DNA of 10,966 nucleotides, taken from IMG/VR virus record IMGVR_UViG_2671180454_000005; one strand, given 5' to 3'. Position numbers and translations under genes: made by a program. The notes under the pieces are model-generated. The model saw only the letters and a list, made by a program, of their open reading frames with translations, had not been told where the DNA came from and did no database searches. The first letter of the stretch is position 1; every line of letters begins with the position of its first letter. Positions 1 through 10,966 of the stretch are shown piece by piece. This DNA is from a virus (lineage: Duplodnaviria; Heunggongvirae; Uroviricota; Caudoviricetes).

Positions 1-367
1 CCTCAAAAACACCATCATACACTAAATCAGTAAGTTGGCAGCATCACCAGCCTTCTTGAGGCTACCACCTGTTTTCAGGTGTCATTCAGACGTGATTTGC
101 CCCAGATTGGGAAAGCACGCTTTTTTCTCAGCTATCGTCCTCTTATTTTGCCGTTACATTTCTTTTTGCATTCTAATGATTAATTTACAATAATAATATC
201 GGTAATTATTGAGTAATAATAAATTAATTATTGCAAATGTAATTTAATTCCATCTTCGCGTTATATTCCAATCTTTAATCTCCGCATGGAACAAGTTGCA
301 TGCGTGACTATATTAAGACGACTTATAACCACCAAAACATTTGCTTTGCAAGCAAAAACAGTGACCA

Positions 368-396
368 TTGACTCTAAGAAAATTCCGATCTATTGT
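368..396 (+). promoter_or_regulatory. Candidate sigma70 promoter (TTGACT, 17-bp spacer, TATTGT), predicted start about 403-405
   Basis: -35 TTGACT at 368-373 (5/6 to consensus), 17-bp spacer, -10 TATTGT at 391-396 (4/6). It is 35 bp upstream of the 431 ATG. AT-rich DNA contains many promoter-like hexamers (another is TTGCAT-17-AATAAT near 166-194), so specificity is low. Confidence 0.25.
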
Positions 397-430
397 TAGG
401 GTCATCAAAGTTACTTAACAGTATTCCGAA

Positions 431-532
431 ATGAAAATACAAAGCAAGCTAATTGTCTTATTAAACATTATTATTGCATTTATATTATTTGAGCTTTTAG
501 CTCAAAAATTTGGTTTGAGTACATTATTTTAA
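431..532 (+). CDS. Hypothetical 33-aa hydrophobic peptide (MKIQSKLIVLLNIIIAFILFELLAQKFGLSTLF); speculative
   Basis: ATG at 431 to TAA at 530-532, with an apparent single transmembrane-like segment. A promoter-like sequence lies upstream and a terminator downstream. There is no convincing Shine-Dalgarno, and AT-rich DNA inflates hydrophobic codons, so this may be chance. Confidence 0.2.
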   Translation: MKIQSKLIVLLNIIIAFILFELLAQKFGLSTLF

Positions 533-681
533 AGCAAGATAAACAATATCGGGCACTCTAGTTTTTATAATTAACAATTAAACGTCCATAAAATGTTATT
601 TACTTTTCTTCGCTATTGTCATATCTTAATATAGTGGCTTACGCCACTCTACTTTCATCACATTTTGTACGTTTATGTACT

Positions 682-714
682 CGCCATGAAGCTCTTTCAT
701 GGCGATTTTTTATT
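682..714 (+). terminator. Intrinsic terminator on the plus strand, convergent with tfa (9-bp stem CGCCATGAA / TTCATGGCG, loop GCTCT, then ATTTTTTATT)
   Basis: Perfect 9-bp inverted repeat at 682-690 / 696-704 followed by a T-rich tract at 705-714. On the minus strand the hairpin is not followed by a U-tract, so it is mainly a plus-strand terminator; it could also contribute to ending the tfa transcript. Confidence 0.55.
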
Positions 715-797
715 CTTAATCCAAGAACATACTCCCTACCTATAGCAAAATCACTTTTTTAACAAAAGAATAACGTATTTAGGTAATCATTACGAAT

Positions 798-1379
798 TTA
801 CCCTATAGGTGCTACTGGCCATTCAATATCCGGTGCAGTTGATGTATCAACACGGTTCAGCAACACCCGATACTTTTTCCAAGCTTCCAGCAACAAGGTT
901 TCTTTCTCCGTTGCGATCTCCAGATCCACAGCATCCTGAAGCGGCGCTATATGCTCACTGGCTACCTGCATCAGGCTGTTTTTTGTTTCTTCCGCCTCCC
1001 GGATCCGGAACAGTTTTTCTGCTTCCGTATCCTTCACCCAGGCTGTGCCGTTCCACTTCTGAAACTCCCCTTCCGGGGATAACCAGGTGACATTTTCCGG
1101 TAATGAGCCGAGTTCAGAAATAAATAACGCGTCGCCGGAAGCCACGTCATAAACCGTTTTACCCCGATGATCTTCAACGAGATGCCACGATGACTCATCA
1201 CTGTTGAAAACAGCCACGAAACCAGCCGGAATATCTGGCGGTGCAATATCGGTACTGTTTGCAGGCAGACCTGTATGAGGCGGAATATATGCGTCACCTT
1301 CACCAATAAATTCATTAGTTCCGGCCAGCAGGTTATAAATTTTTATGGTCCGTGCTTGTTCACTCATTCTGAATGCCAT
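798..1379 (-). CDS. tfa: Tail fibre assembly protein Tfa (193 aa)
   Basis: [62 protein letters not shown]... is near-identical to lambda Tfa as recalled. The ATG at 1379-1377 overlaps the stf stop by one base (TAATG), with a GAGG Shine-Dalgarno inside the stf 3' end. Confidence 0.9.
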
Positions 1380-4300
1380 TATGCGAGCCTCACAATATAG
1401 TTAAATGCGATGTTTTTGACGGTGTTTTCCGCGTTACCAGCAGCGTTAACGGTGATGGTGTGTCCATGTGAACCAATCGCAACAGAGTGCGTATGAGCAC
1501 CAATACCGACAGTATGCGCGTGTGCACCCGCAGATGCTGCTGTGCCGGACAGTGAGTGTGTATGGTTTCCTTCTGAAGATGATTTACCTACCCATTGGGA
1601 GGTGCCACTGGTTAATGAGCCACTGATACCAACCTGATTAGTCCCGCTAACTTGAGTACTCCCTGCCGGAAACATTCCAGTAGGTTGACTCCCGCTATTC
1701 GTTCTGGGCCCAGTCTGACTATGTTGGTGGGCCCCAGCTGAACTTGTAGAGCCGCTCAGACTGTGCGTATGCGCCCCGGTGTTATTCGTGGATTTAGTGC
1801 CGTAATCAAACGACGATGTGGTTTTCGTCCCCAAATCCGTACTGGATGCGCTGGCGCTGTGGGTGTGCGATTTAATGCCATCCTGTTCCTGAGACAATAC
1901 GGCACGACCACTGGCGGGCTTGCCCTTAATCGTCCAGCCACGCATATCAGGGATCACGCCTGACGGATAAGCGGCTGCAAGTTTCGGGTAAGCAGATTTG
2001 TCAAAAGTCTGCCCCTGCATCAGGGCATAACCAGACGGAACGGTATCTGATGGCCACGGGATTGGTGCACCGACTGGATAAAACTCTGCAGGAGGATGAG
2101 CCGAGGTGTAAAGCTGCGCCCACGGCGACCAGTTTGCGTCGGTCGTATCCCGTCGTGAACGAATAAATGCCGGAGCATGAGCACCGCTTGTACCACTCCA
2201 GCCGATGAGTAACTCACCTTCGCCAACGGCTGTCATCCCTTTCAGGTGAATGATATTTCCATACGCTGTTGGATATCCGTTGTTATACACCTCGTATAAC
2301 TCAAGACCTGCTGCCCCCTGCGTATTGTCTGTCAGCGCGGCTACCCGACCTTTTGAAGCCAGATTAACTGATGATACTGCTGTTCCACCTGACGGTAGCG
2401 CCCCGATCTCTGATGCCGTTGGCTTATTTCTGGAGTTATAGTCCCTTCGCCAGCCAGGTGAATAATCTGTTCCGTGATTAATATAGGTAAACTGGGCGTT
2501 GGTTGTTCCGCCACCGCTGGATGTGGTCGGAGTGGTAATGCGGATCGTCATCGCTGACTTTATCCCCATTACTTCAATGACAGCTCCGGCGAGATGAATA
2601 TTACCGCAGCCAGTATCAGTAATGATTTTATTATTGCCATAAGACCAGGAACCCTTGCACATCCAGTATGGATGGTTAAATGCTCCCTGAGAATCCAGCC
2701 ACTCGATAAACTGTGCAGTCGTCCAGTTTCCTGTTGTTGTGCTTACTGACCCACCGAAGGCACGGCAGGCACCAATATTTTTCGTAAAGGTGTCTTTGCC
2801 AGGGATATCCGCACCGTTCTGATCTTTCTGCAGACGTTTCTCAGCATTGTCATTGGCTGCTTTTACTGCCTTTGGCGTTGCCGCCAGCGTTTCAGACGTG
2901 CTGTTGGTCGCGCTGCTTAGCTGGATTATCCCTTTCTGTGCTGTCGTTGCATCCTGTGCGGTGTATTTCCCGTTAGCCAGGTCATACGCGGCCTTAACGG
3001 CTTTTGGTGTTGCCGCCAGTGACTCGGAAGTGCTGTTAGTCGCACTACTGAGCTGTACTATCCCCTTTTTCGTCGTGCTCGCATCCTCAAGCGCCACGGC
3101 GGATGCAATATCCTCTGCCCGTTTTGCCGCTGTCTCAGCGCGCGTTGCTGCAGATTCCGCCGTACTTTTGCTCTGAGCTGCTGCCGTCGCACTACCAGCA
3201 GCCTCTGTCGCCTTCGTGGATGCCGTCGTGGCGCTGCCCTTCGCTGCTGACGCCTGTCTGGTCGCCTCATCTTTTGAAGCAGACGCCGATGATGCCGATG
3301 ACGCCGCCGAACTGGCGGACGATGCGGCAGCCGTTTTTGAGGATTCTGCACGGGTTTCCGACGCTTTCGCGTTCGTTTCGGATGTCTTCGCTGCGGAAGC
3401 TGACCTCGCTGCTGCCGTGGCCTGCTCAGTGGCTTCGCCAGCCTTCGTTGTGGCTGTTGAAGCGGATGATGCGGCGCTTTCTGCCGATTTTCCGGCGGCG
3501 GTGGCACTGGCTGAGGCCTGCCCGGCACTTGTTGACGCGGCGCTGGCAGACGACGCAGCCGCTGTTTTTGAGCCTGCCGCAGCTGAGGCACTCTGTCCCG
3601 CTGCCGTTTCAGAAGACCTGGCGTTCGTCTCGGACGTTTTGGCCGCCTTCGCAGAATTTGCAGCCGCCGTCGCCGAGGAAGCTGCGCTACTGGCGCTTGA
3701 TGATGCGTTCGTTTCTGATGATTTTGCCGCCTCTTTTGAAGCCGACGCATCCCGGGCTGAGGTGGCAGCTTCTGACGCTTTCGTGGTCGCGGTGGATGCA
3801 GAAGTGGCTGCTGATTGTTGTGACGCTGCCGCATTCGTTTCTAACGTTTTCGCCGCACCGGCACTGGTAGCCGCCGCGCTTTTTGAGGACTCTGCAGCGG
3901 CAGCACTTTTTGAGGCTTCAGTGGCCTTTGTTGATGCCGTTCCTGCGCTGGAAGACGCTGACTGAGCCGACGAAGCGGCCTGTCCGGCTGACGTGCTGGC
4001 TGCACGTGCTGAATCTGCAGCATCAGTCGCATGGGTTGCCGCCTCACGGGCTGATGTGCTGGCATCGCTGGCTGATTTCTTCGCGGCTGCCGTGTTCTGT
4101 GCCACCGCGGACGCGTTACGCGCCACCTCTTCCACCATCAGCTCAAAACGGCGCAGTGCCTCCGGACGGGCATCATCCTCCGTCATGGCACCGAGAAAAT
4201 CATTCAGCGTACCGGGTCGGGAATCTTCATACACGGTGATGGTCCCGGCATGTGACGGCGGGAATCCTTCCACCAACAGAATAACGCTGTACTGACCGTA

Positions 4301-4462
4301 CTCAACGTCCATGCTGTAACGCCCGGCTTCATCCGGATTTTCTGAGGCCAGCGTGTTCACCACCACCGTGGTGCTGTTACGTTTTGCTTTCAGCTGGATT
4401 GTGCAGTTCTGTACCGGTTTTCCTGTGCCGTCTTTCAGTACACCTGAAATCTTTACTGCCAT
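1379..4462 (-). CDS. stf: Side tail fibre protein Stf, 1027 aa, mosaic (lambda-like N- and C-termini, expanded Ala/Ser/Thr-rich shaft, extra central domain)
   Basis: ATG at 4462-4460 preceded by GGGGTG. N-terminus [36 protein letters not shown]... and C-terminus ...[49 protein letters not shown] match lambda Stf as recalled, including the His-X-His repeats. The track ORF 1379..4705 is a run-through across the N gap; everything upstream of 4462 is artefact. The stop overlaps the tfa ATG. Confidence 0.85.
2854..3078 (-). repeat. Intragenic tandem duplication (2 x ~129 bp, 43 codons) inside stf, encoding TT(K/A)(K/Q)GI(V/I)[11 protein letters not shown](S/T)[11 protein letters not shown]
   Basis: Two consecutive near-identical 43-aa units (aa ~463-505 and ~506-548). 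Lambda Stf, as I recall it, has this motif once. Confidence 0.75.
3082..4114 (-). repeat. Low-complexity Ala/Ser/Thr-rich coding repeat region inside stf (about aa 117-460), with recurring AAKTSETNA-type units
   Basis: Translation is dominated by A/S/T with repeated KTSETNA(A/R/K)SSE and [10 protein letters not shown] motifs. The same DNA yields long spurious ORFs in other frames and on the plus strand, which is typical of GC-rich codon repeats. Confidence 0.7.
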
Positions 4463-4496
4463 ATTCACCCCACAAAAAAGCCCGCCTGAACCGGCG

Positions 4497-4629
4497 NNNN
4501 NNNNNNNNNNNNNNNNNNNNNNNNNNNNNNNNNNNNNNNNNNNNNNNNNNNNNNNNNNNNNNNNNNNNNNNNNNNNNNNNNNNNNNNNNNNNNNNNNNNN
4601 NNNNNNNNNNNNNNNNNNNNNNNNNNNNN
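4497..4629. other. Scaffold/assembly gap (133 N)
   Basis: Run of n characters. Sequence on the two sides is not contiguous: IS interior on one side, stf upstream hairpin on the other. Confidence 1.
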
Positions 4630-4873
4630 GTCTTTCTGGCTGGCGGTTCAGGGTATTTGAGGTAGCGTCTGACCGTCCGTTCAGAGCAACCAATCTGAGT
4701 CGCAATATCGACGATGTACGCGCCCTGCTGGCGCATTTGCTTTATCATGTAAAAGTCCTCTCTGCTCAGCATGTTGATGTCCTTTCTGGTGTGAGAACCT
4801 TAAGGAAACAACATGTTGGGTGGAGCGGACAATCCAAATGGCGAATTACCGTCTTATATCACTGGCGCTGACA
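4630..4873 (-). mobile_element. istA: IS21-family insertion sequence, left-end fragment (terminal ~100 bp plus first 47 codons of the istA transposase), running into the N gap
   Basis: Minus-strand ORF starting at 4772 encodes MLSREDFYMIKQMRQQGAYIVDIATQIGCSERTVRRYLKYPEPPARK, which I recognise as the helix-turn-helix N-terminus of IS21-family IstA. A candidate IS terminus begins 5'-TGTCAGCGCCAG at minus-strand position 4873, the TG start being typical of IS21 ends. The family call is from memory; the exact boundary is uncertain by a few bp. Confidence 0.6.
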
Positions 4874-5185
4874 CTTCATCACCTCCGGACGTAAATCACC
4901 ATCCTTTGGTGCATTCAGAAACGCGTTCAGTGTCCCCGGTGCATCAGTCGGTGCCACATCAATATCCCCGACACGGGTTGGCTGCCAGCCGTTACAGTGA
5001 AGCGCAACCTCGTAATACCCCGGCTCAGCCTCAATCACATAAGCACCGTTATTGTCCGTCACGCAAGTGGCAACAACGTGTGCCACAACGGTCGGACTGG
5101 TTCTTCTGGCCCGCAGTTCAATCGCACAATTTACGACAGGTTTACCCGCCCCATCTTTCAGTACACCTGAAATCTTTACTGCCAT
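4859..5185 (-). pseudogene. stf: Truncated side-tail-fibre gene: N-terminal 104 codons of an Stf-like protein, fused to 4 codons plus stop from the adjacent IS terminus
   Basis: ATG at 5185-5183. [28 protein letters not shown]... is a divergent allele of the Stf N-terminus at 4462 ([28 protein letters not shown]...), and the two share ...PGTLN(A/D)FL...RPE. The ORF ends ...PEVMK-CQRQ*, where TGTCAGCGCCAGTGA is the start of the IS-like segment. The track's upstream extension (MTARWFRRAFCGVN) reads through the terminator hairpin and is not credible. Confidence 0.65.
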
Positions 5186-5196
5186 ATTCACCCCAC

Positions 5197-5221
5197 AAAA
5201 AGCCCGCCTGAACCAGCGGGC
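5197..5221 (-). terminator. Intrinsic terminator downstream of lom (GCCCGC-TGGTTCAG-GCGGGC plus TTTTT on minus strand), immediately 5' of the stf-like start codon
   Basis: Plus strand 5197-5221 aaaagcccgcctgaaccagcgggc. A partial copy (gcccgcctgaaccggcg) sits at 4480-4496 against the N gap, upstream of the full stf. Confidence 0.6.
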
Positions 5222-5248
5222 AGTCATAACACTGTGTTACCTGGCTAA

Positions 5249-5848
5249 TCAGAACTTATAACCGACACCCACGATGAAACCGTCAGTGCGCCAGTCACCA
5301 CTGCCGGAACCTTCATAAGCAAGGTCAATGGCCACGGATTCGGTCGGGTTAAACTGCACGCCAGCCCCCCACGCCAGAGACGTGTTGCTGTGGCGACCGC
5401 CATCACTTCCGGTCAGCACATCGTGCGTTTTCCCCTTGTTGTCAGTTACGCGGAGATAATCCCCGGAGAAGGTCGACACACGGCTGTAAGCCACGCCCGC
5501 CATCGCATACGCGCTGAACCATTCATTCACGCGCACAGACGGCCCCGCCATCACGCTGAACCAGCGGTTACGCACGGAATCCTCATGCCAGCGGGTATCG
5601 CTGTAATGCGTTTTTTGCTCATCTTCAGCGTTGGCATAACTGAATGACGTAATCAGCCCCAGCGTGTCCGTAAACTCATAACGGTATTTCACGTTAATGC
5701 CCTTCAGGTCATCGCTGCCTGGCATATCAGTATGGGTCTGAAGATACCCGGCGCTCAGCGTGGACTGATGTTCAGACGCCCATGCAGGCGCACCGGATAC
5801 GGCCAGACAGATGGCTGCGGACAAAATGGCTGCACAAACTTTACGCAT
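5249..5848 (-). CDS. lom: Lom / Ail-family outer membrane beta-barrel protein (199 aa), apparently intact
   Basis: Predicted signal peptide MRKVCAAILSAAICLAVSGAPAWA. Motifs GINVKYRYE, AYAMAGVA and the C-terminal AYEGSGSGDWRTDGFIVGVGYKF match lambda Lom as I recall it. GAGAGG Shine-Dalgarno 8 nt upstream of the ATG; stop TGA at 5249. Confidence 0.9.
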   Translation of the reverse strand: MRKVCAAILSAAICLAVSGAPAWASEHQSTLSAGYLQTHTDMPGSDDLKGINVKYRYEFTDTLGLITSFSYANAEDEQKTHYSDTRWHEDSVRNRWFSVMAGPSVRVNEWFSAYAMAGVAYSRVSTFSGDYLRVTDNKGKTHDVLTGSDGGRHSNTSLAWGAGVQFNPTESVAIDLAYEGSGSGDWRTDGFIVGVGYKF

Positions 5849-8081: not shown

Positions 8082-10966
8082 TCAACGAATACTGATGCCG
8101 GAAGCCGCTTTTTTGGTCACAATCACCGTACAGTCGGTGATATTGCCTGCCCCCTGATTGCCTTTCTGGAAAATCTTAAACTCCAGAGTGACGCTACCAC
8201 CACCACTAGGCATATCAATAACTGCACTGTAACTACCGGGAATGGCACCTTTAGTTTCTCTGGATGCGATTAATACGCCGTTTTTGCGAACTTCAAAACC
8301 ATAACCCGTGTATCGCGTGCCTCCTGGGTTATTTCCGCTCCCCGGATCGTCATACGCTATACCGTTAAAAATAATGGGCGGAATAATAATCTGGCGGTCA
8401 AAGTTATGATCATCGCTTATGGTGACTGTAACCGTCCCGTTTGGTGTTTCCGTGTTACCCCACGTACCAGCCTGTTTCGGAAATGATTTGGATACAGCTT
8501 TAACGAAGTCACCTCTGACCTGAGTCGCCTCCAGCATGCCCTTAATCGTACAGTTTTCATTTACCGTGACATTGTTGAGCGTCCCGGCGTTCGCATTCAC
8601 ACTGCCACTGATATCCGCATTTTTAGCGGTCAGCTTTCCGTCCGGAGTCAGGGAAAATGCCGATGGATTTCCACCGCTGGTAATGGTGGGGGCCGTCAGG
8701 CGTTTCAGGAACACGTCGTTCATGAATATCTGATCGCCCTGACCAACAAACATCGGTTTTGTGTTGCCATTCGCAGGATTAACCATCGCAATCCTGTCCG
8801 CCGCCAGCAGCACCTGACTCTGCATGCCGTCAGGGGTGTTCTCAATACCGGCACCAATACCCGCGATATAAAGGCGTCCGTCCTGCATCTGCTGCAGCTT
8901 CACAGCCCACATGCTGTTCAGGTTATTATTTGTATCAACCTGAACCTTCTGTATCTGCTGAATTGCCGCACTCTGGTCTTCCAGTTTCTTATTGACGGTC
9001 TGCGTGATTTCATTGCTGACATCCGTAATGGACGTCCTGATTTCAGCCAGGTCAGGCGCAAGCTGACCGTTATCAATCTGCGTCCACAGCTCCTGAGCCA
9101 GATGGGTTTTCCCTATCTCGCCTTTGAAAAAATCCAGATAACCGGATGCATCATCACTCGGCTGACCAACAGCCTCCACGAATGCCGATTTGCCAACGGT
9201 GTTCACACTGCGGATATAAAAGTAATAATCATGGCCCGGTTTGATATTGATACTGGCGGCTATCCAGTACAGCGCCGTGCCAAGATAGCGTGCTGTGGTT
9301 TCAACCTGCCTGATATCCGCAATCCGCTTTTCCGAGAACCAGAACTCAAACTGTACCGTCGGATCATAAACCGCAAGATGCGGCGTGGCGGTTATCTGAA
9401 AATAGCCCGGCGTCAGCTCAATCCGCGACAGCGCTGCCGGTGCGGCAATCCGGAACGATACCGACGCCGGATCGCCCTGCTGCCCCCACGCATTTACTGC
9501 CCGGACTGTCAGCCTGTAGTTCCCCAGCGCCAGTTGTGTGAAGCGGTAAGTGGTTTCCGTCGTCCGGGCCGTGCTGACCAGCCGCTCACTGCCGTCATCC
9601 GCTGTTACGGTCAGACGGAGCAGGAAGCTCACGCCCTTCACCACCTTCGGCGTGTCCCAGCGCGCCAGCACCTGATATTCCCCGCTGTCTGCGGTGACTT
9701 CGGCAGTCAGGTGCTGCACCGCTGGCGGCGTGACACCATTCACCGTGCCGCTCTGGTCGCCGTCAAAGTGCGCCCCGTTATCCACGATGGCTTCTTTTTC
9801 CGGCACATGCTGCACGGCGGTGATGGCATACGTGCCGTCGTCGTTCTCACGGATACTCACGCAGCGGAACAATCGCTGGTGCAGCGTCGGCAGCTTCAGC
9901 CCCCACACGCTGTATTCAGCAACACCGTCAGGAACACGGCTCACTTTTACCTTCACGCCGTCGGTGACGGACTGGACCTCCACGCTGACCGGATTCCCCT
10001 GCCCGTCAACCAGGCTTATCAGCGTGGTGCCGGAGGATGGCAGCGTGATTTCACGGTCGAGCGTCAGCGTCCGGGTCTGGCTGTTCACCGCCAGCACGCG
10101 CCCGCCGGTGCGGATACCGGCATAGTCATCATCGCAGATTTCAATGACATCGCCCGGTACATGACGAAGCCCTTCAGCACCCACGCTGAAATCCACGGTC
10201 TGCGTCTCCAGCAGTTCCGTTTTAATCAGCCACAGCCCGGCGCGGTGTGCCTGCCCCCGGCTGGTACAGCCAAAGGCATCCATCTTCGTGACATTACGAC
10301 CGTAACGGGCAATGGCCTGCGTATCCTCCACAAGCTCTGTCGCCGTCTCCCAGCCGTTATCCGGGTCAATCCAGTTCACCTCAACGGCATTATGGCGGTC
10401 TTTCAGGGCGCTGAAACTGTAGCGGAACGGCGCGCCATCATCCGGCATCACCACATTACTGCGGTTATAGGCCCACACCTTATCCGACTGTCGGTCCTGC
10501 ACGAACGTCAGCGTCTGCCCGTTCCATACCGGCATACAGCGCATCGCCGAGCAGAAATCACTGAGCACATCCCACGCCTTGCGCTGTGTGGTCAGCCAGG
10601 CATTACAGGTGATGCGCGGCTCCGTGCTGCCAAAGCCGTCCGGCACCGACTGGTCACAGTACTGGCCGATGACATACAGCGCCCATTTATCCACATCTGC
10701 CGCACCAAGACGTTTCCCCATGCCATAGCGCGGATGGGTCAGCATATCCCACAGACACCAGGCCATGTTGTTGCTGTATGCCGGTTTTAACGTTCCGTCC
10801 CAGATACCGCTGTATTGCCGCGTCTGCGGATTATAGTTCGACGGCACCTGCAGAATGCGCCCGCGAAGATGATAATTACGGCTCACCTGCTGGCTGCCGA
10901 ACTGCTCCGAATCCACCTGTACGCCGACCAGTGCCGTGTTCGGGTAGCACTGTTTCACATCGATGA
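8082..10966 (-). CDS. J: Host specificity protein J (tail tip / central tail fibre), 5'-partial: the reading frame runs off the window edge
   Basis: Open frame of 958+ codons on the minus strand. The translation ([57 protein letters not shown]... [21 protein letters not shown]...) matches lambda J as I recall it. The track's first 'M' at 10958 is an internal GTG (Val), and the frame stays open to 10966. Stop TGA at 8082-8084. Confidence 0.9.

What the first reader, a model, noticed from the sequence alone, without database searches (positions are those of the whole stretch)
368..714. Compact promoter / 33-codon hydrophobic ORF / terminator unit in the AT-rich region beyond tfa
The roughly 800 bp past tfa are strongly AT-rich with no long ORF, which suggests horizontally acquired cargo. 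Within it a near-consensus -35/-10 pair (TTGACT-17-TATTGT, 368..396) precedes a 33-codon ORF for a single-helix hydrophobic peptide (MKIQSKLIVLLNIIIAFILFELLAQKFGLSTLF, 431..532). About 150 nt further on is a strong plus-strand intrinsic terminator (682..714) oriented against tfa. The layout resembles small membrane-toxin or small-protein cargo genes, or an sRNA of about 300 nt. The weaknesses are the lack of a Shine-Dalgarno and the compositional bias of AT-rich DNA.
Basis: inference. Interest (0 to 1): 0.45.

Follow-up and report, generated by a model that had tools for sequence, protein, structure and literature searches.

The report
Unannotated prophage YncL-like small membrane protein
The 33-codon reading frame is a real, unannotated gene: a prophage-carried relative of the E. 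coli small membrane protein YncL, apparently with its own promoter and terminator, present in about 15% of complete E. coli genomes.

Summary
Promoter match and ORF length are no better than chance in this AT-rich DNA. Comparison with related sequences is what makes the unit real.

- The same ~580-bp module follows tfa in three prophage contexts and occurs in 816 of 5,426 complete E. coli genomes. It is never annotated there.
- The ORF is intact in every copy examined that is not cut by a contig end. That includes 47 of 48 viral contigs picked by the 3' block alone.
- dN/dS is 0.04-0.09 against alleles down to 79% identity.
- The peptide matches YncL: NCBIfam E=1.3e-5, BLASTP E=2e-7, and 0 of 20,000 shuffles reach the score. 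TM window, N12, basic residues at 6 and 26, and F27-G28 coincide with YncL.
- It scores below the YncL equivalog cut-off (25 against 35 bits), so it is a divergent paralogue, not an orthologue.

Best reading: a prophage moron (independent cargo transcription unit) making a YncL-like inner-membrane peptide. Transcription, translation and function are inferred, not shown. A conserved 3' block (633-714) hints at an additional RNA-level role. Type I toxin-antitoxin and pure sRNA readings are disfavoured.

The parts
220..797 (+). Whole AT-rich module that travels with the 3' end of tfa.
   Evidence: The same segment follows tfa at the lambda attachment site (99%), at Qin/ydfJ (about 96%) and beside sitABCD (93% and 79%). 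In the Qin and sit copies the left flank is a remnant of a tfa 3' end. GC is about 0.29.
247..326 (.). Conserved island upstream of the promoter; function unknown, possibly regulatory.
   Evidence: It is 85-90% identical in the 79% allele, while the neighbouring spacers fall to 55-60%. The ORFs overlapping it are broken in some alleles.
368..396 (+). Sigma-70-type promoter-like site TTGACT-17-TATTGT, with a C just upstream of the -10 hexamer (CTATTGT).
   Evidence: Found. It is the only promoter-like site on either strand kept at the same position in the window, the 94% allele and the 79% allele. No indels fall in it, and 21% of columns vary against 46-67% in the spacers. Activity is not shown.
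404..430 (+). Predicted short 5' leader without a Shine-Dalgarno sequence; the transcription start near 403-405 is inferred.
   Evidence: The sequence shows this directly. The initiation region 404-470 is essentially unstructured: MFE -2.3 kcal/mol, no better than shuffles. No indels occur among the alleles.
431..532 (+). 33-codon gene for a YncL-like single-pass membrane peptide.
   Evidence: The ORF was listed. It is intact in 26 of 26 alleles and in 47 of 48 block-selected viral contigs. dN/dS is 0.09 and 0.04, and 0 of 20,000 random placements of the substitutions give as few amino-acid changes. Variable sites: 13 at third, 8 at first and 2 at second codon positions. YncL HMM E=1.3e-5. BLASTP E=2e-7. 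0 of 20,000 shuffles reach the pairwise score. The TM window is residues 7-25.
533..632 (+). Variable spacer, taken to be 3' UTR.
   Evidence: 46% of columns vary and there are several indels. Identity to the far allele is 57-62%. This serves as the local neutral baseline.
633..680 (+). Conserved 3' block: hairpin 633-648 (AGTGGC-TTAC-GCCACT) followed by a nearly invariant linker.
   Evidence: It is 88-95% identical even in the 79% allele. The fold of 626-716 has z=-6.8. Two stem changes (C638T, A646G) give G-U wobbles that work only in the plus-strand RNA. The small hairpin at 667-680 is broken in some alleles.
681..714 (+). Intrinsic terminator: a 10-11 bp stem followed by TTTTTTATT, convergent with tfa.
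   Evidence: Found. No T-run follows it on the minus strand. The stem is invariant apart from its first and last base, and G691A turns a G-U pair into A-U. Comparable hairpins occur in 2% of shuffles.

Best explanation
Window 368-714 is a prophage moron, that is, a self-contained cargo transcription unit of foreign, AT-rich composition. It sits just past the tail-fibre assembly gene and points against the late operon. Its product is a 33-residue single-pass inner-membrane peptide that is a divergent paralogue of the E. coli stress-induced small membrane protein YncL.

Proposed mechanism, with the basis of each step:
1. Transcription starts about 7 nt after the conserved TTGACT-17-TATTGT promoter (inferred).
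2. The short, unstructured, A/U-rich leader allows translation without a Shine-Dalgarno sequence from AUG AAA (inferred; that the frame is translated is supported by purifying selection).
3. The peptide inserts into the inner membrane through residues 7-25 (inferred from sequence and homology).
4. By analogy with YncL, which on expression causes sublethal membrane depolarisation, the phage-shock response and nucleoid condensation (PMC12542507), it shifts the lysogen's membrane energetics or stress state. That could benefit the lysogen or interfere with other phages (speculative).
5. The strong terminator at 681-714 ends the transcript and keeps antisense transcription out of tfa and stf (terminator shown by sequence and conservation; role inferred).
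For: - Spread: the module is in 816 of 5,426 complete E. coli genomes with at least 80% coverage. All matches are chromosomal, in three distinct prophage settings, with no feature annotated under the match in any row shown.
- Open frame: the ORF is open in all 26 distinct nucleotide alleles. It is also open in 47 of 48 viral contigs retrieved through the 3' block alone; the exception is cut by the contig end.
- Selection: dN/dS is 0.09 against the 79% allele (11 synonymous, 7 non-synonymous changes) and 0.04 against the 94% allele. None of 20,000 random placements of the 18 substitutions gives 5 or fewer amino-acid changes.
- Specificity: the other ORFs in the region are broken in some alleles or change only non-synonymously.
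- Homology to YncL: NCBIfam NF000537 gives E=1.3e-5, 3.7e-5 and 7.5e-5 for the three natural variants, and no hit for 8 shuffles. BLASTP against K-12 YncL gives 11 of 28 identities, gapless from Met1, E=2e-7. The pairwise score is 60 against 20 +/- 4 in shuffles, with 0 of 20,000 reaching it.
- Shared layout with YncL: TM window 7-25, basic residues at 6 and 26, and N12, F20, F27-G28.
- Promoter: it is the only promoter-like site positionally conserved in three diverged alleles.
- Terminator: conserved and beyond chance.
- Conservation pattern: islands of conservation (promoter plus ORF, and the 3' block) lie between spacers at 55-62% identity.
- Precedent: Salmonella yncL is itself a short, sRNA-sized stand-alone transcript (STnc1110) (PMC5437024).
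Against: - There are no expression data. The promoter scores only 9/12, no better than chance on its own.
- There is no Shine-Dalgarno sequence.
- The YncL HMM score (22.5-25 bits) is below the curated 35-bit cut-off, so it is not an orthologue. Function cannot simply be transferred, and the reported YncL phenotypes come from plasmid expression.
- Allelic diversity is limited to three main lineages, so the selection signal rests on few independent comparisons.
- A frameshifted 43-aa variant exists on 2 assembled contigs.
- Gene callers almost never call the ORF.
- The element was not found in any species-representative genome, so it is a narrow, probably young family.
Confidence: 0.72

Rival explanations
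1. Dual-function or separate 3' small RNA. The conserved block 633-714 (5' hairpin, nearly invariant single-stranded linker, terminator with U-tail) would be an ~80-nt Hfq-type sRNA. It would be made either by processing of the peptide mRNA's 3' UTR or from a weak internal promoter (TTTACT-17-TATCTT, 599-627). It would regulate host or phage mRNAs by base pairing, in addition to the peptide gene.
For: - The block is 88-95% identical in an allele where the neighbouring spacers are 57-62% identical. Only 13% of its columns vary against 46% just upstream.
- The linker 649-666 varies at a single site among the block alleles.
- The fold has z=-6.8.
- The stem changes C638T and A646G are wobble-compatible only on the plus-strand RNA.
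- A promoter-like site ends at 627, so a transcript would start at the base of the hairpin.
Against: - No Rfam family matches it.
- The internal promoter is weak (8/12) and drops to 3/6 in the -10 of the far allele (sequence).
- There are no compensatory double changes, and the small hairpin at 667-680 is broken in some alleles.
- The U-tail is interrupted (TTTCTT) in the diverged alleles.
- The block is never found without the ORF.
- The conservation could reflect terminator or mRNA-stability needs, or a recombination patch.
- There is no meaningful pairing with the gene's own initiation region.
Confidence: 0.2
2. Type I toxin-antitoxin module. The hydrophobic peptide would be a membrane-damaging toxin, held in check by an antisense RNA from the minus strand (for example from ATGACA-18-TAACAT at 622..593) that overlaps the 3' part of the toxin mRNA. 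The pair would stabilise the prophage.
For: - The peptide has the size and hydrophobicity of type I toxins.
- YncL expression depolarises the membrane (PMC12542507).
- Prophage-borne type I systems are known (PMC12648545).
- A minus-strand promoter-like site lies at roughly the same place in three alleles.
Against: - No terminator-like site on the minus strand was found in 1-1400.
- The minus-strand -35 degrades to 3/6 in the far allele, and the region it would transcribe (533-590) is the least conserved part of the module and carries indels.
- The leader is short (about 27 nt) and unstructured, unlike the translationally inert, highly folded toxin mRNAs typical of type I systems.
- There is no 5'-3' fold-back pairing.
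- YncL is described as sublethal, not as a TA toxin.
- No PADLOC hit.
Confidence: 0.06
3. Chance ORF and chance promoter in AT-rich, H-NS-silenced spacer DNA. Only the terminator would be functional, insulating the late operon from inward transcription.
For: ORFs of this length and 9/12 promoter matches are expected by chance here. AT-rich DNA readily encodes hydrophobic peptides. There is no Shine-Dalgarno sequence, and the ORF carries no annotation in any of the E. coli genome records listed.
Against: dN/dS is 0.04-0.09, with 0 of 20,000 simulations matching. The frame is never broken, while the five neighbouring ORFs at 261-368(-), 286-399(+), 300-371(+), 313-408(-) and 616-762(+) are. There is specific similarity to YncL that shuffles do not reproduce.
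Confidence: 0.02

Closest known systems
YncL (E. coli K-12 b4598; Salmonella STM14_1932/STnc1110), NCBIfam NF000537 'stress response membrane protein YncL'
   Same: Both are about 31-33 aa single-pass hydrophobic peptides. The alignment is gapless from Met1, with 11 of 28 identities. They share N12, F20 and F27-G28, basic residues at 6 and 26, and the TM window 7-25. Each is a short stand-alone transcription unit of sRNA size (PMC5437024).
   Different: The window peptide scores 25 bits against the 35-bit equivalog cut-off. It is prophage-borne, next to tfa, rather than chromosomal between patD and ortT. It lacks a Shine-Dalgarno sequence, whereas yncL has AAGGTGG. It has a 150-nt variable 3' UTR plus a conserved 3' block. 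The two loci share no evident nucleotide-level similarity (not formally aligned). Regulation and phenotype are untested.
Phage morons at the tail-fibre end of lambdoid genomes (lambda lom and bor, HK97 gp15, phi80/N15 cor; own knowledge)
   Same: It is an independent promoter-gene-terminator unit of deviating composition, sitting at a module boundary. It is present in some related prophages and absent from others, and it encodes an envelope protein likely to be expressed in the lysogen.
   Different: It is much smaller (33 aa) and shows no sequence relationship to those proteins (no PHROG hit). It is oriented against the late operon. No exclusion or virulence phenotype is known.
YohP and other stress-induced small membrane proteins of E. 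coli
   Same: Same class: under 50 aa, one TM helix. YohP and YncL both depolarise the membrane sublethally (PMC12542507).
   Different: No sequence similarity to YohP was detected; the only family hit is YncL.
Type I toxins (Hok, Ldr, TisB, Ibs, ShoB, Zor)
   Same: A small hydrophobic membrane peptide carried on a mobile element.
   Different: No convincing antisense antitoxin, no structured leader and no family hit.

Membership tests
YncL (NCBIfam NF000537, equivalog) | HMM score at or above the curated cut-off of 35 bits. | tested here: not met
   The three natural variants score 25.0, 23.5 and 22.5 bits.
YncL (NCBIfam NF000537, equivalog) | Statistically significant sequence similarity to YncL that composition does not explain. 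| tested here: met
   HMM E=1.3e-5 to 7.5e-5, with 0 of 8 shuffles hitting. BLASTP E=2e-7. 0 of 20,000 shuffles reach the pairwise score.
YncL (NCBIfam NF000537, equivalog) | A peptide of about 30 aa with one TM helix and matching layout of the flanking basic residues and the in-membrane Asn. | tested here: met
   The TM window is 7-25 in both. K6/R6, K26/R26, N12, F20 and F27-G28 align.
YncL (NCBIfam NF000537, equivalog) | Orthologous chromosomal position (patD-yncL-ortT). | tested here: not met
   It lies in prophage cargo next to tfa at the lambda attachment site, Qin and sit-adjacent sites. K-12 yncL lies between patD and ortT.
YncL (NCBIfam NF000537, equivalog) | Inner-membrane localisation, stress or stationary-phase induction, and depolarisation on expression. 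| not testable with these tools
   Known for YncL only (PMC12542507, PMC5437024, PMC10470546).
Phage moron | Its own terminator and a nucleotide composition unlike the flanking phage genes. | tested here: met
   Terminator at 681-714. GC is 0.29 against about 0.5.
Phage moron | Its own promoter, active in the lysogen. | tested here: inconclusive
   A positionally conserved 9/12 site is present. Activity was not measured.
Phage moron | Present or absent among otherwise related prophages, and located at a module boundary. | tested here: met
   It is in 816 of 5,426 genomes and always 3' of tfa, with left flanks that differ by context. That K-12 Qin carries pinQ at this position instead is from my own knowledge and was not checked here.
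Type I toxin-antitoxin | A cognate antisense or divergent sRNA with a conserved promoter and terminator. | tested here: inconclusive
   Only a weak, poorly conserved minus-strand promoter-like site was found, and no minus-strand terminator.
Type I toxin-antitoxin | A toxin mRNA held translationally inert by a structured leader or 5'-3' pairing. | tested here: not met
   The initiation region is unstructured. Linker-to-initiation-region duplex energy equals that of shuffles.
Hfq-type 3'UTR-derived sRNA | A terminator hairpin with U-tail preceded by a conserved single-stranded seed. | tested here: met
   The U-tail is interrupted in the diverged alleles.
Hfq-type 3'UTR-derived sRNA | A stable short RNA species, Hfq binding, and mRNA targets. 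| not testable with these tools
   No expression data are available, and there is no Rfam match.

The most novel reading that the evidence does not exclude
The unit is a dual-function prophage cargo gene. It would make a YncL-like depolarising peptide that protects the lysogen, for example by blocking PMF-dependent DNA entry of other phages or by pushing cells into a tolerant low-energy state. Its conserved 3' end (633-714) would also be released as an Hfq-binding regulatory sRNA acting on host genes.
Probability: 0.12. Interest if true: 0.6.

Novelty: new member of a known kind. Interest (0 to 1): 0.4.

Why it matters
Small membrane proteins are systematically missed by annotation. This one sits in about 15% of complete E. 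coli genomes and carries no annotation in any of the E. coli records I looked at. It was almost never called as a gene among 15 billion predicted proteins. It gives YncL, a protein only recently linked to sublethal membrane depolarisation and nucleoid condensation, a mobile, phage-borne paralogue. That suggests phages have recruited this class of host stress peptide as lysogenic-conversion cargo. It also offers natural sequence variants (for example E21K and A24D inside the helix) for structure-function work. If it affects membrane energetics, it could influence stress or antibiotic tolerance, or phage exclusion, in the strains that carry it.

Tried and rejected
- **Rfam** (E up to 1) over 1-1400 found only IS009 inside tfa and nothing in the unit.
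- **Pfam, PHROGs and PADLOC** gave no meaningful hit for the peptide.
- **tblastn of the peptide against phage records** found nothing, although four phage genomes carry the gene at the DNA level. Probably the low-complexity filter masks the query.
- **The 1.84-billion-representative search** returned only the peptide itself and one frameshift variant.
- **Species-representative genomes** gave no match, either with peptide patterns or with the 3'-block DNA pattern.
- **Literature searches** for the peptide or DNA strings gave nothing.
- **The in-ORF hairpin 488-506** as an attenuator or terminator: rejected, because the stem is broken in diverged alleles.
- **The 37-aa ORF 286-399**, annotated in phage PhiR70_1: rejected, because the ATG is lost and stops appear in other alleles.
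- **The minus-strand 24-aa ORF 626-700**: it is intact only because it lies in the conserved block, and all its changes are non-synonymous.
- **Fold-back pairing of the 3' linker with the initiation region**: no better than shuffles.
- **A formal covariation test on the 3' block**: not run, because only about 10 alleles with a handful of changes exist.

Full report
**1. The observation**

The window starts inside the end of an IS1 element (1-48; see section 8). An AT-rich stretch follows (49-797, GC 0.29-0.35). Then come the late genes on the minus strand:
- tfa, 798-1379
- a long tail-fibre gene, 1379-4705
- lom, 5249-5848
- J, 8082-10958

These assignments come and from the annotation of near-identical relatives.

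- TTGACT-17-TATTGT at 368-396.
- An ATG-initiated 33-codon ORF at 431-532, encoding MKIQSKLIVLLNIIIAFILFELLAQKFGLSTLF.
- A 10-11 bp hairpin at 681-705 followed by TTTTTTATT. It is a terminator on the plus strand only, because no T-run follows it on the minus strand.

Taken singly, two of the three are unremarkable. Promoter-like 9/12 sites occur 5 times in 1-1400, against 4.4 +/- 2.4 in shuffles. ORFs of at least 33 aa occur 6 times in 49-797, against 3.3 +/- 1.6. Only the terminator exceeds chance: a perfect stem of at least 9 bp followed by a T-run appears in 10 of 500 shuffles. The case therefore depends on comparative evidence.

**2. Distribution**

- Window 360-730 matches 828 of 5,426 complete E. 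coli genomes, 816 of them over at least 80% of its length. All matches are chromosomal. No annotated feature lies under the match in any of the 60 rows listed, which were sampled across the whole ranking.
- Four sequenced phages also carry it: mEp332, PhiR70_1 and two records of ev099.
- The segment from about 220 to 797 follows a tfa gene in three different prophage settings:
  - at the lambda attachment site next to bioA and ybhB (99% identical);
  - in Qin-type prophages at ydfJ (about 96%);
  - next to sitABCD (93% and 79%).
- In the Qin and sit copies the left flank is a remnant of another tfa 3' end.
- It was not found in the one-genome-per-species collection, either by peptide patterns or by a 33-nt DNA pattern from the 3' block.

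It is therefore a narrow family, seen here only in E. coli prophages and phages.

**3. Is the ORF a gene?**

- I collected 45 loci, which gave 26 distinct nucleotide alleles of 350-740. The 33-codon frame is intact in all of them.
- Some of those loci had been selected through the peptide, so I ran an independent test. I retrieved 48 viral contigs using only a 29-nt pattern from the 3' block. Forty-seven carry the intact ORF; the remaining one is cut by the contig end.
- Nei-Gojobori counts against the 79% allele give 11 synonymous and 7 non-synonymous changes, so dN/dS is 0.09. Against the 94% allele the counts are 5 and 1, so dN/dS is 0.04.
- I placed the same 18 substitutions at random 20,000 times. 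None of the runs gave 5 or fewer amino-acid changes; the mean was 11.4.
- Of the variable ORF columns, 13 are at third codon positions, 8 at first (many of them CTN/TTR leucine changes) and 2 at second.
- No other ORF in 200-800 shows such a pattern. Five are broken in some alleles. The two that stay open (374-442 minus, 626-700 minus) change almost only non-synonymously.
- One frameshifted 43-aa variant exists, on 2 contigs assembled from raw sequencing runs.
- Gene callers almost never call this ORF: three called protein sequences (two intact variants and the frameshifted one) among 15 billion proteins.

I conclude that the frame is under purifying selection as a protein.

**4. What protein?**

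Pfam, PHROGs and PADLOC give nothing. NCBIfam gives a single hit, NF000537 'stress response membrane protein YncL'.
- E=1.3e-5 at 25 bits, aligning residues 1-28 to model positions 1-28 of 30.
- The two other natural variants hit the same model (E=3.7e-5 and 7.5e-5).
- Eight composition-preserving shuffles hit nothing.
- BLASTP against K-12 YncL (translated from L009:12100-12195, minus strand) gives a gapless alignment from Met1 with 11 of 28 identities and 18 of 28 positives, E=2e-7.
- The Smith-Waterman score is 60, against 20 +/- 4 in 20,000 shuffles. None of the shuffles reaches it.

The two peptides also share their layout:
- the best 19-residue hydrophobic window, 7-25;
- a basic residue at 6 and at 26;
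- Asn12 inside the helix;
- Phe20 and Phe27-Gly28.

The score lies below the curated 35-bit equivalog threshold, and the locus is not the patD-yncL-ortT position. So this is a divergent, prophage-borne paralogue, not yncL itself.

**5. The transcription unit**

- I scanned three diverged alleles (window, 94% and 79%) on both strands for sites of at least 8/12. The 368-396 site is the only one kept at exactly the same position in all three.
- It has no indels, and 21% of its columns vary, against 67% just upstream.
- Its -10 reads CTATTGT, with a C immediately upstream of the hexamer. K-12 yncL has CTATACA before its leader. yncL is sigma-S dependent in Salmonella (PMC5437024). I note the resemblance to sigma-S-type -10 elements only as a lead from my own knowledge.
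- The leader would be about 27 nt, with no Shine-Dalgarno sequence. The initiation region is predicted to be unstructured (-2.3 kcal/mol, weaker than most shuffles), and the second codon is AAA. Both are compatible with Shine-Dalgarno-independent initiation (inference).
- Downstream of the stop codon, 533-632 is the least conserved part of the module: 46% of columns vary, there are indels, and identity to the far allele is 57-62%.
- Conservation then rises to 88-95% over 620-719. That stretch contains hairpin 633-648, a nearly invariant linker and the terminator. The fold of 626-716 has z=-6.8.
- Two stem substitutions (C638T, A646G) create G-U wobbles, which are tolerated only in a plus-strand RNA. 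G691A converts a G-U pair at the top of the terminator stem into A-U.
- The hairpin inside the ORF (488-506), which the scan also flagged as terminator-like, is broken in diverged alleles and is dismissed.

**6. Mechanism and rivals**

The best-supported reading is a moron: a cargo unit of foreign composition with its own promoter and terminator. It is placed at the tfa end of the prophage and produces a YncL-like inner-membrane peptide in the lysogen.

What is known about YncL:
- It is induced by heat shock, in minimal medium and in stationary phase (Hemm et al. 2010 for heat shock and minimal medium; Hemm et al. 2008, 2010 for stationary phase and stress; both as cited in PMC12542507).
- It is sigma-S dependent in Salmonella, where its mRNA had been listed as the sRNA STnc1110 (PMC5437024).
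- It was cleaved by the intramembrane protease RseP in the in vivo assays, but a cleavage fragment was not reproducibly detected with purified RseP in vitro (PMC10470546).
- On expression it causes sublethal membrane depolarisation, the phage-shock response, reduced protein synthesis and nucleoid condensation (PMC12542507).

By analogy, the prophage peptide probably tunes membrane energetics. Whether that benefits the host (stress tolerance) or the prophage (exclusion of other phages) is speculation.

The terminator also shields tfa and stf from antisense transcription (inferred).

Rivals:
- **(a) An additional ~80-nt 3' sRNA.** The unexplained conservation of the linker supports it. The evidence against it is listed under the rival explanations. 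I give it 0.2, and it is not exclusive of the coding reading.
- **(b) A type I toxin-antitoxin pair.** A weak minus-strand promoter-like site (622..593) is roughly conserved. There is no minus-strand terminator. The region it would transcribe is the least conserved part of the module. The leader is short and unstructured, and no fold-back pairing exists. I give it 0.06.
- **(c) A chance ORF.** The substitution pattern and the YncL similarity contradict it.

**7. Novelty and verdict**

The kind is known, both as a small stress membrane protein of the YncL type and as a phage moron. This member appears undescribed:
- It has no annotation in any of the E. coli genome records listed.
- No name is attached to it in the protein collection.
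- No paper in the searched library contains its sequence.

I rate it a new member of a known kind and of moderate interest. Transcription, translation, localisation and phenotype all remain to be shown.

**8. Things seen in passing**

- Window 1-48 matches the inverted-repeat end of IS1. The sequence identity is from my own memory; it is consistent with its multi-copy distribution in 4,998 of 5,426 genomes.
- In strain 104 a full IS1A lies between a YdeO/GadX-like AraC-family regulator and the module. Strain TUM9757 lacks the IS1 and has about 750 bp of other DNA there, including a tRNA-like fragment that ARAGORN does not call.
- Window 49-133 recurs at other prophage ends in several hundred E. 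coli genomes (count estimated), for example beside DUF1076 genes in O157:H7.
- Rfam IS009 matches 838-1036 (minus) inside tfa.
- The GC dip at 4351-4800 is an artefact of a run of 132 N at 4498-4629. It lies next to a transposase-like N-terminal fragment (IS21-family IstA by my own recognition, not searched) and a duplicated tail-fibre N-terminus.
- A conserved island at 247-326, upstream of the promoter, is unexplained.

Noticed in passing
window 1-48: This is the terminal inverted repeat of IS1, identified from memory and consistent with multi-copy matches in 4,998 of 5,426 genomes. In relatives such as strain 104 a full IS1A sits between a YdeO/GadX-like AraC-family regulator gene and the module. 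Strain TUM9757 lacks the IS1 and has about 750 bp of other DNA there, including a tRNA-like 3' fragment that ARAGORN does not call.
   Followed up: partly
window 49-133: An 85-nt segment recurs at 93-100% identity in several hundred other E. coli genomes, detached from the rest of the module. One example is the end of an O157:H7 prophage next to DUF1076 (NleG-like) genes near uspF (L094:2501-2586). It may be a recombination or module boundary.
   Followed up: partly
window 247-326: This island is 85-90% conserved in the 79% allele, lying 40-120 bp upstream of the promoter and flanked by spacers at about 55% identity. No intact conserved ORF or conserved hairpin was found in it. It may be a regulatory region for the small gene.
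   Followed up: partly
window 838-1036 (-): A full-length Rfam IS009 match (218 bits, E=7e-55) lies inside the 3' half of tfa.
   Followed up: no
window 4498-4629 and surroundings (4377-5227): The window contains a run of 132 N, which causes the apparent GC dip at 4351-4800. It is flanked by a transposase-like N-terminal fragment (ORF 4377-4772, minus strand; IS21-family IstA by my own recognition, not searched) and by a second, truncated copy of the tail-fibre N-terminus (4859-5227, minus strand). The stf 5' end is therefore disrupted or misassembled here.
   Followed up: partly
L001:4501-5244 (-), about 750 bp left of window position 49 in relatives: This is a prophage-borne AraC-family regulator, most similar to YdeO (149 bits, below the equivalog cut-off) and to GadX. 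It lies in the same AT-rich cargo region. Whether it regulates the small gene is unknown, and Qin-type copies of the module lack it.
   Followed up: partly
window 599-627 (+) and 622..593 (-): Two weak promoter-like sites sit just upstream of the conserved 3' block. TTTACT-17-TATCTT on the plus strand would start an RNA at the base of hairpin 633-648. ATGACA-18-TAACAT on the minus strand would give an RNA antisense to the ORF's 3' end. Both are only partly conserved in the 79% allele.
   Followed up: partly
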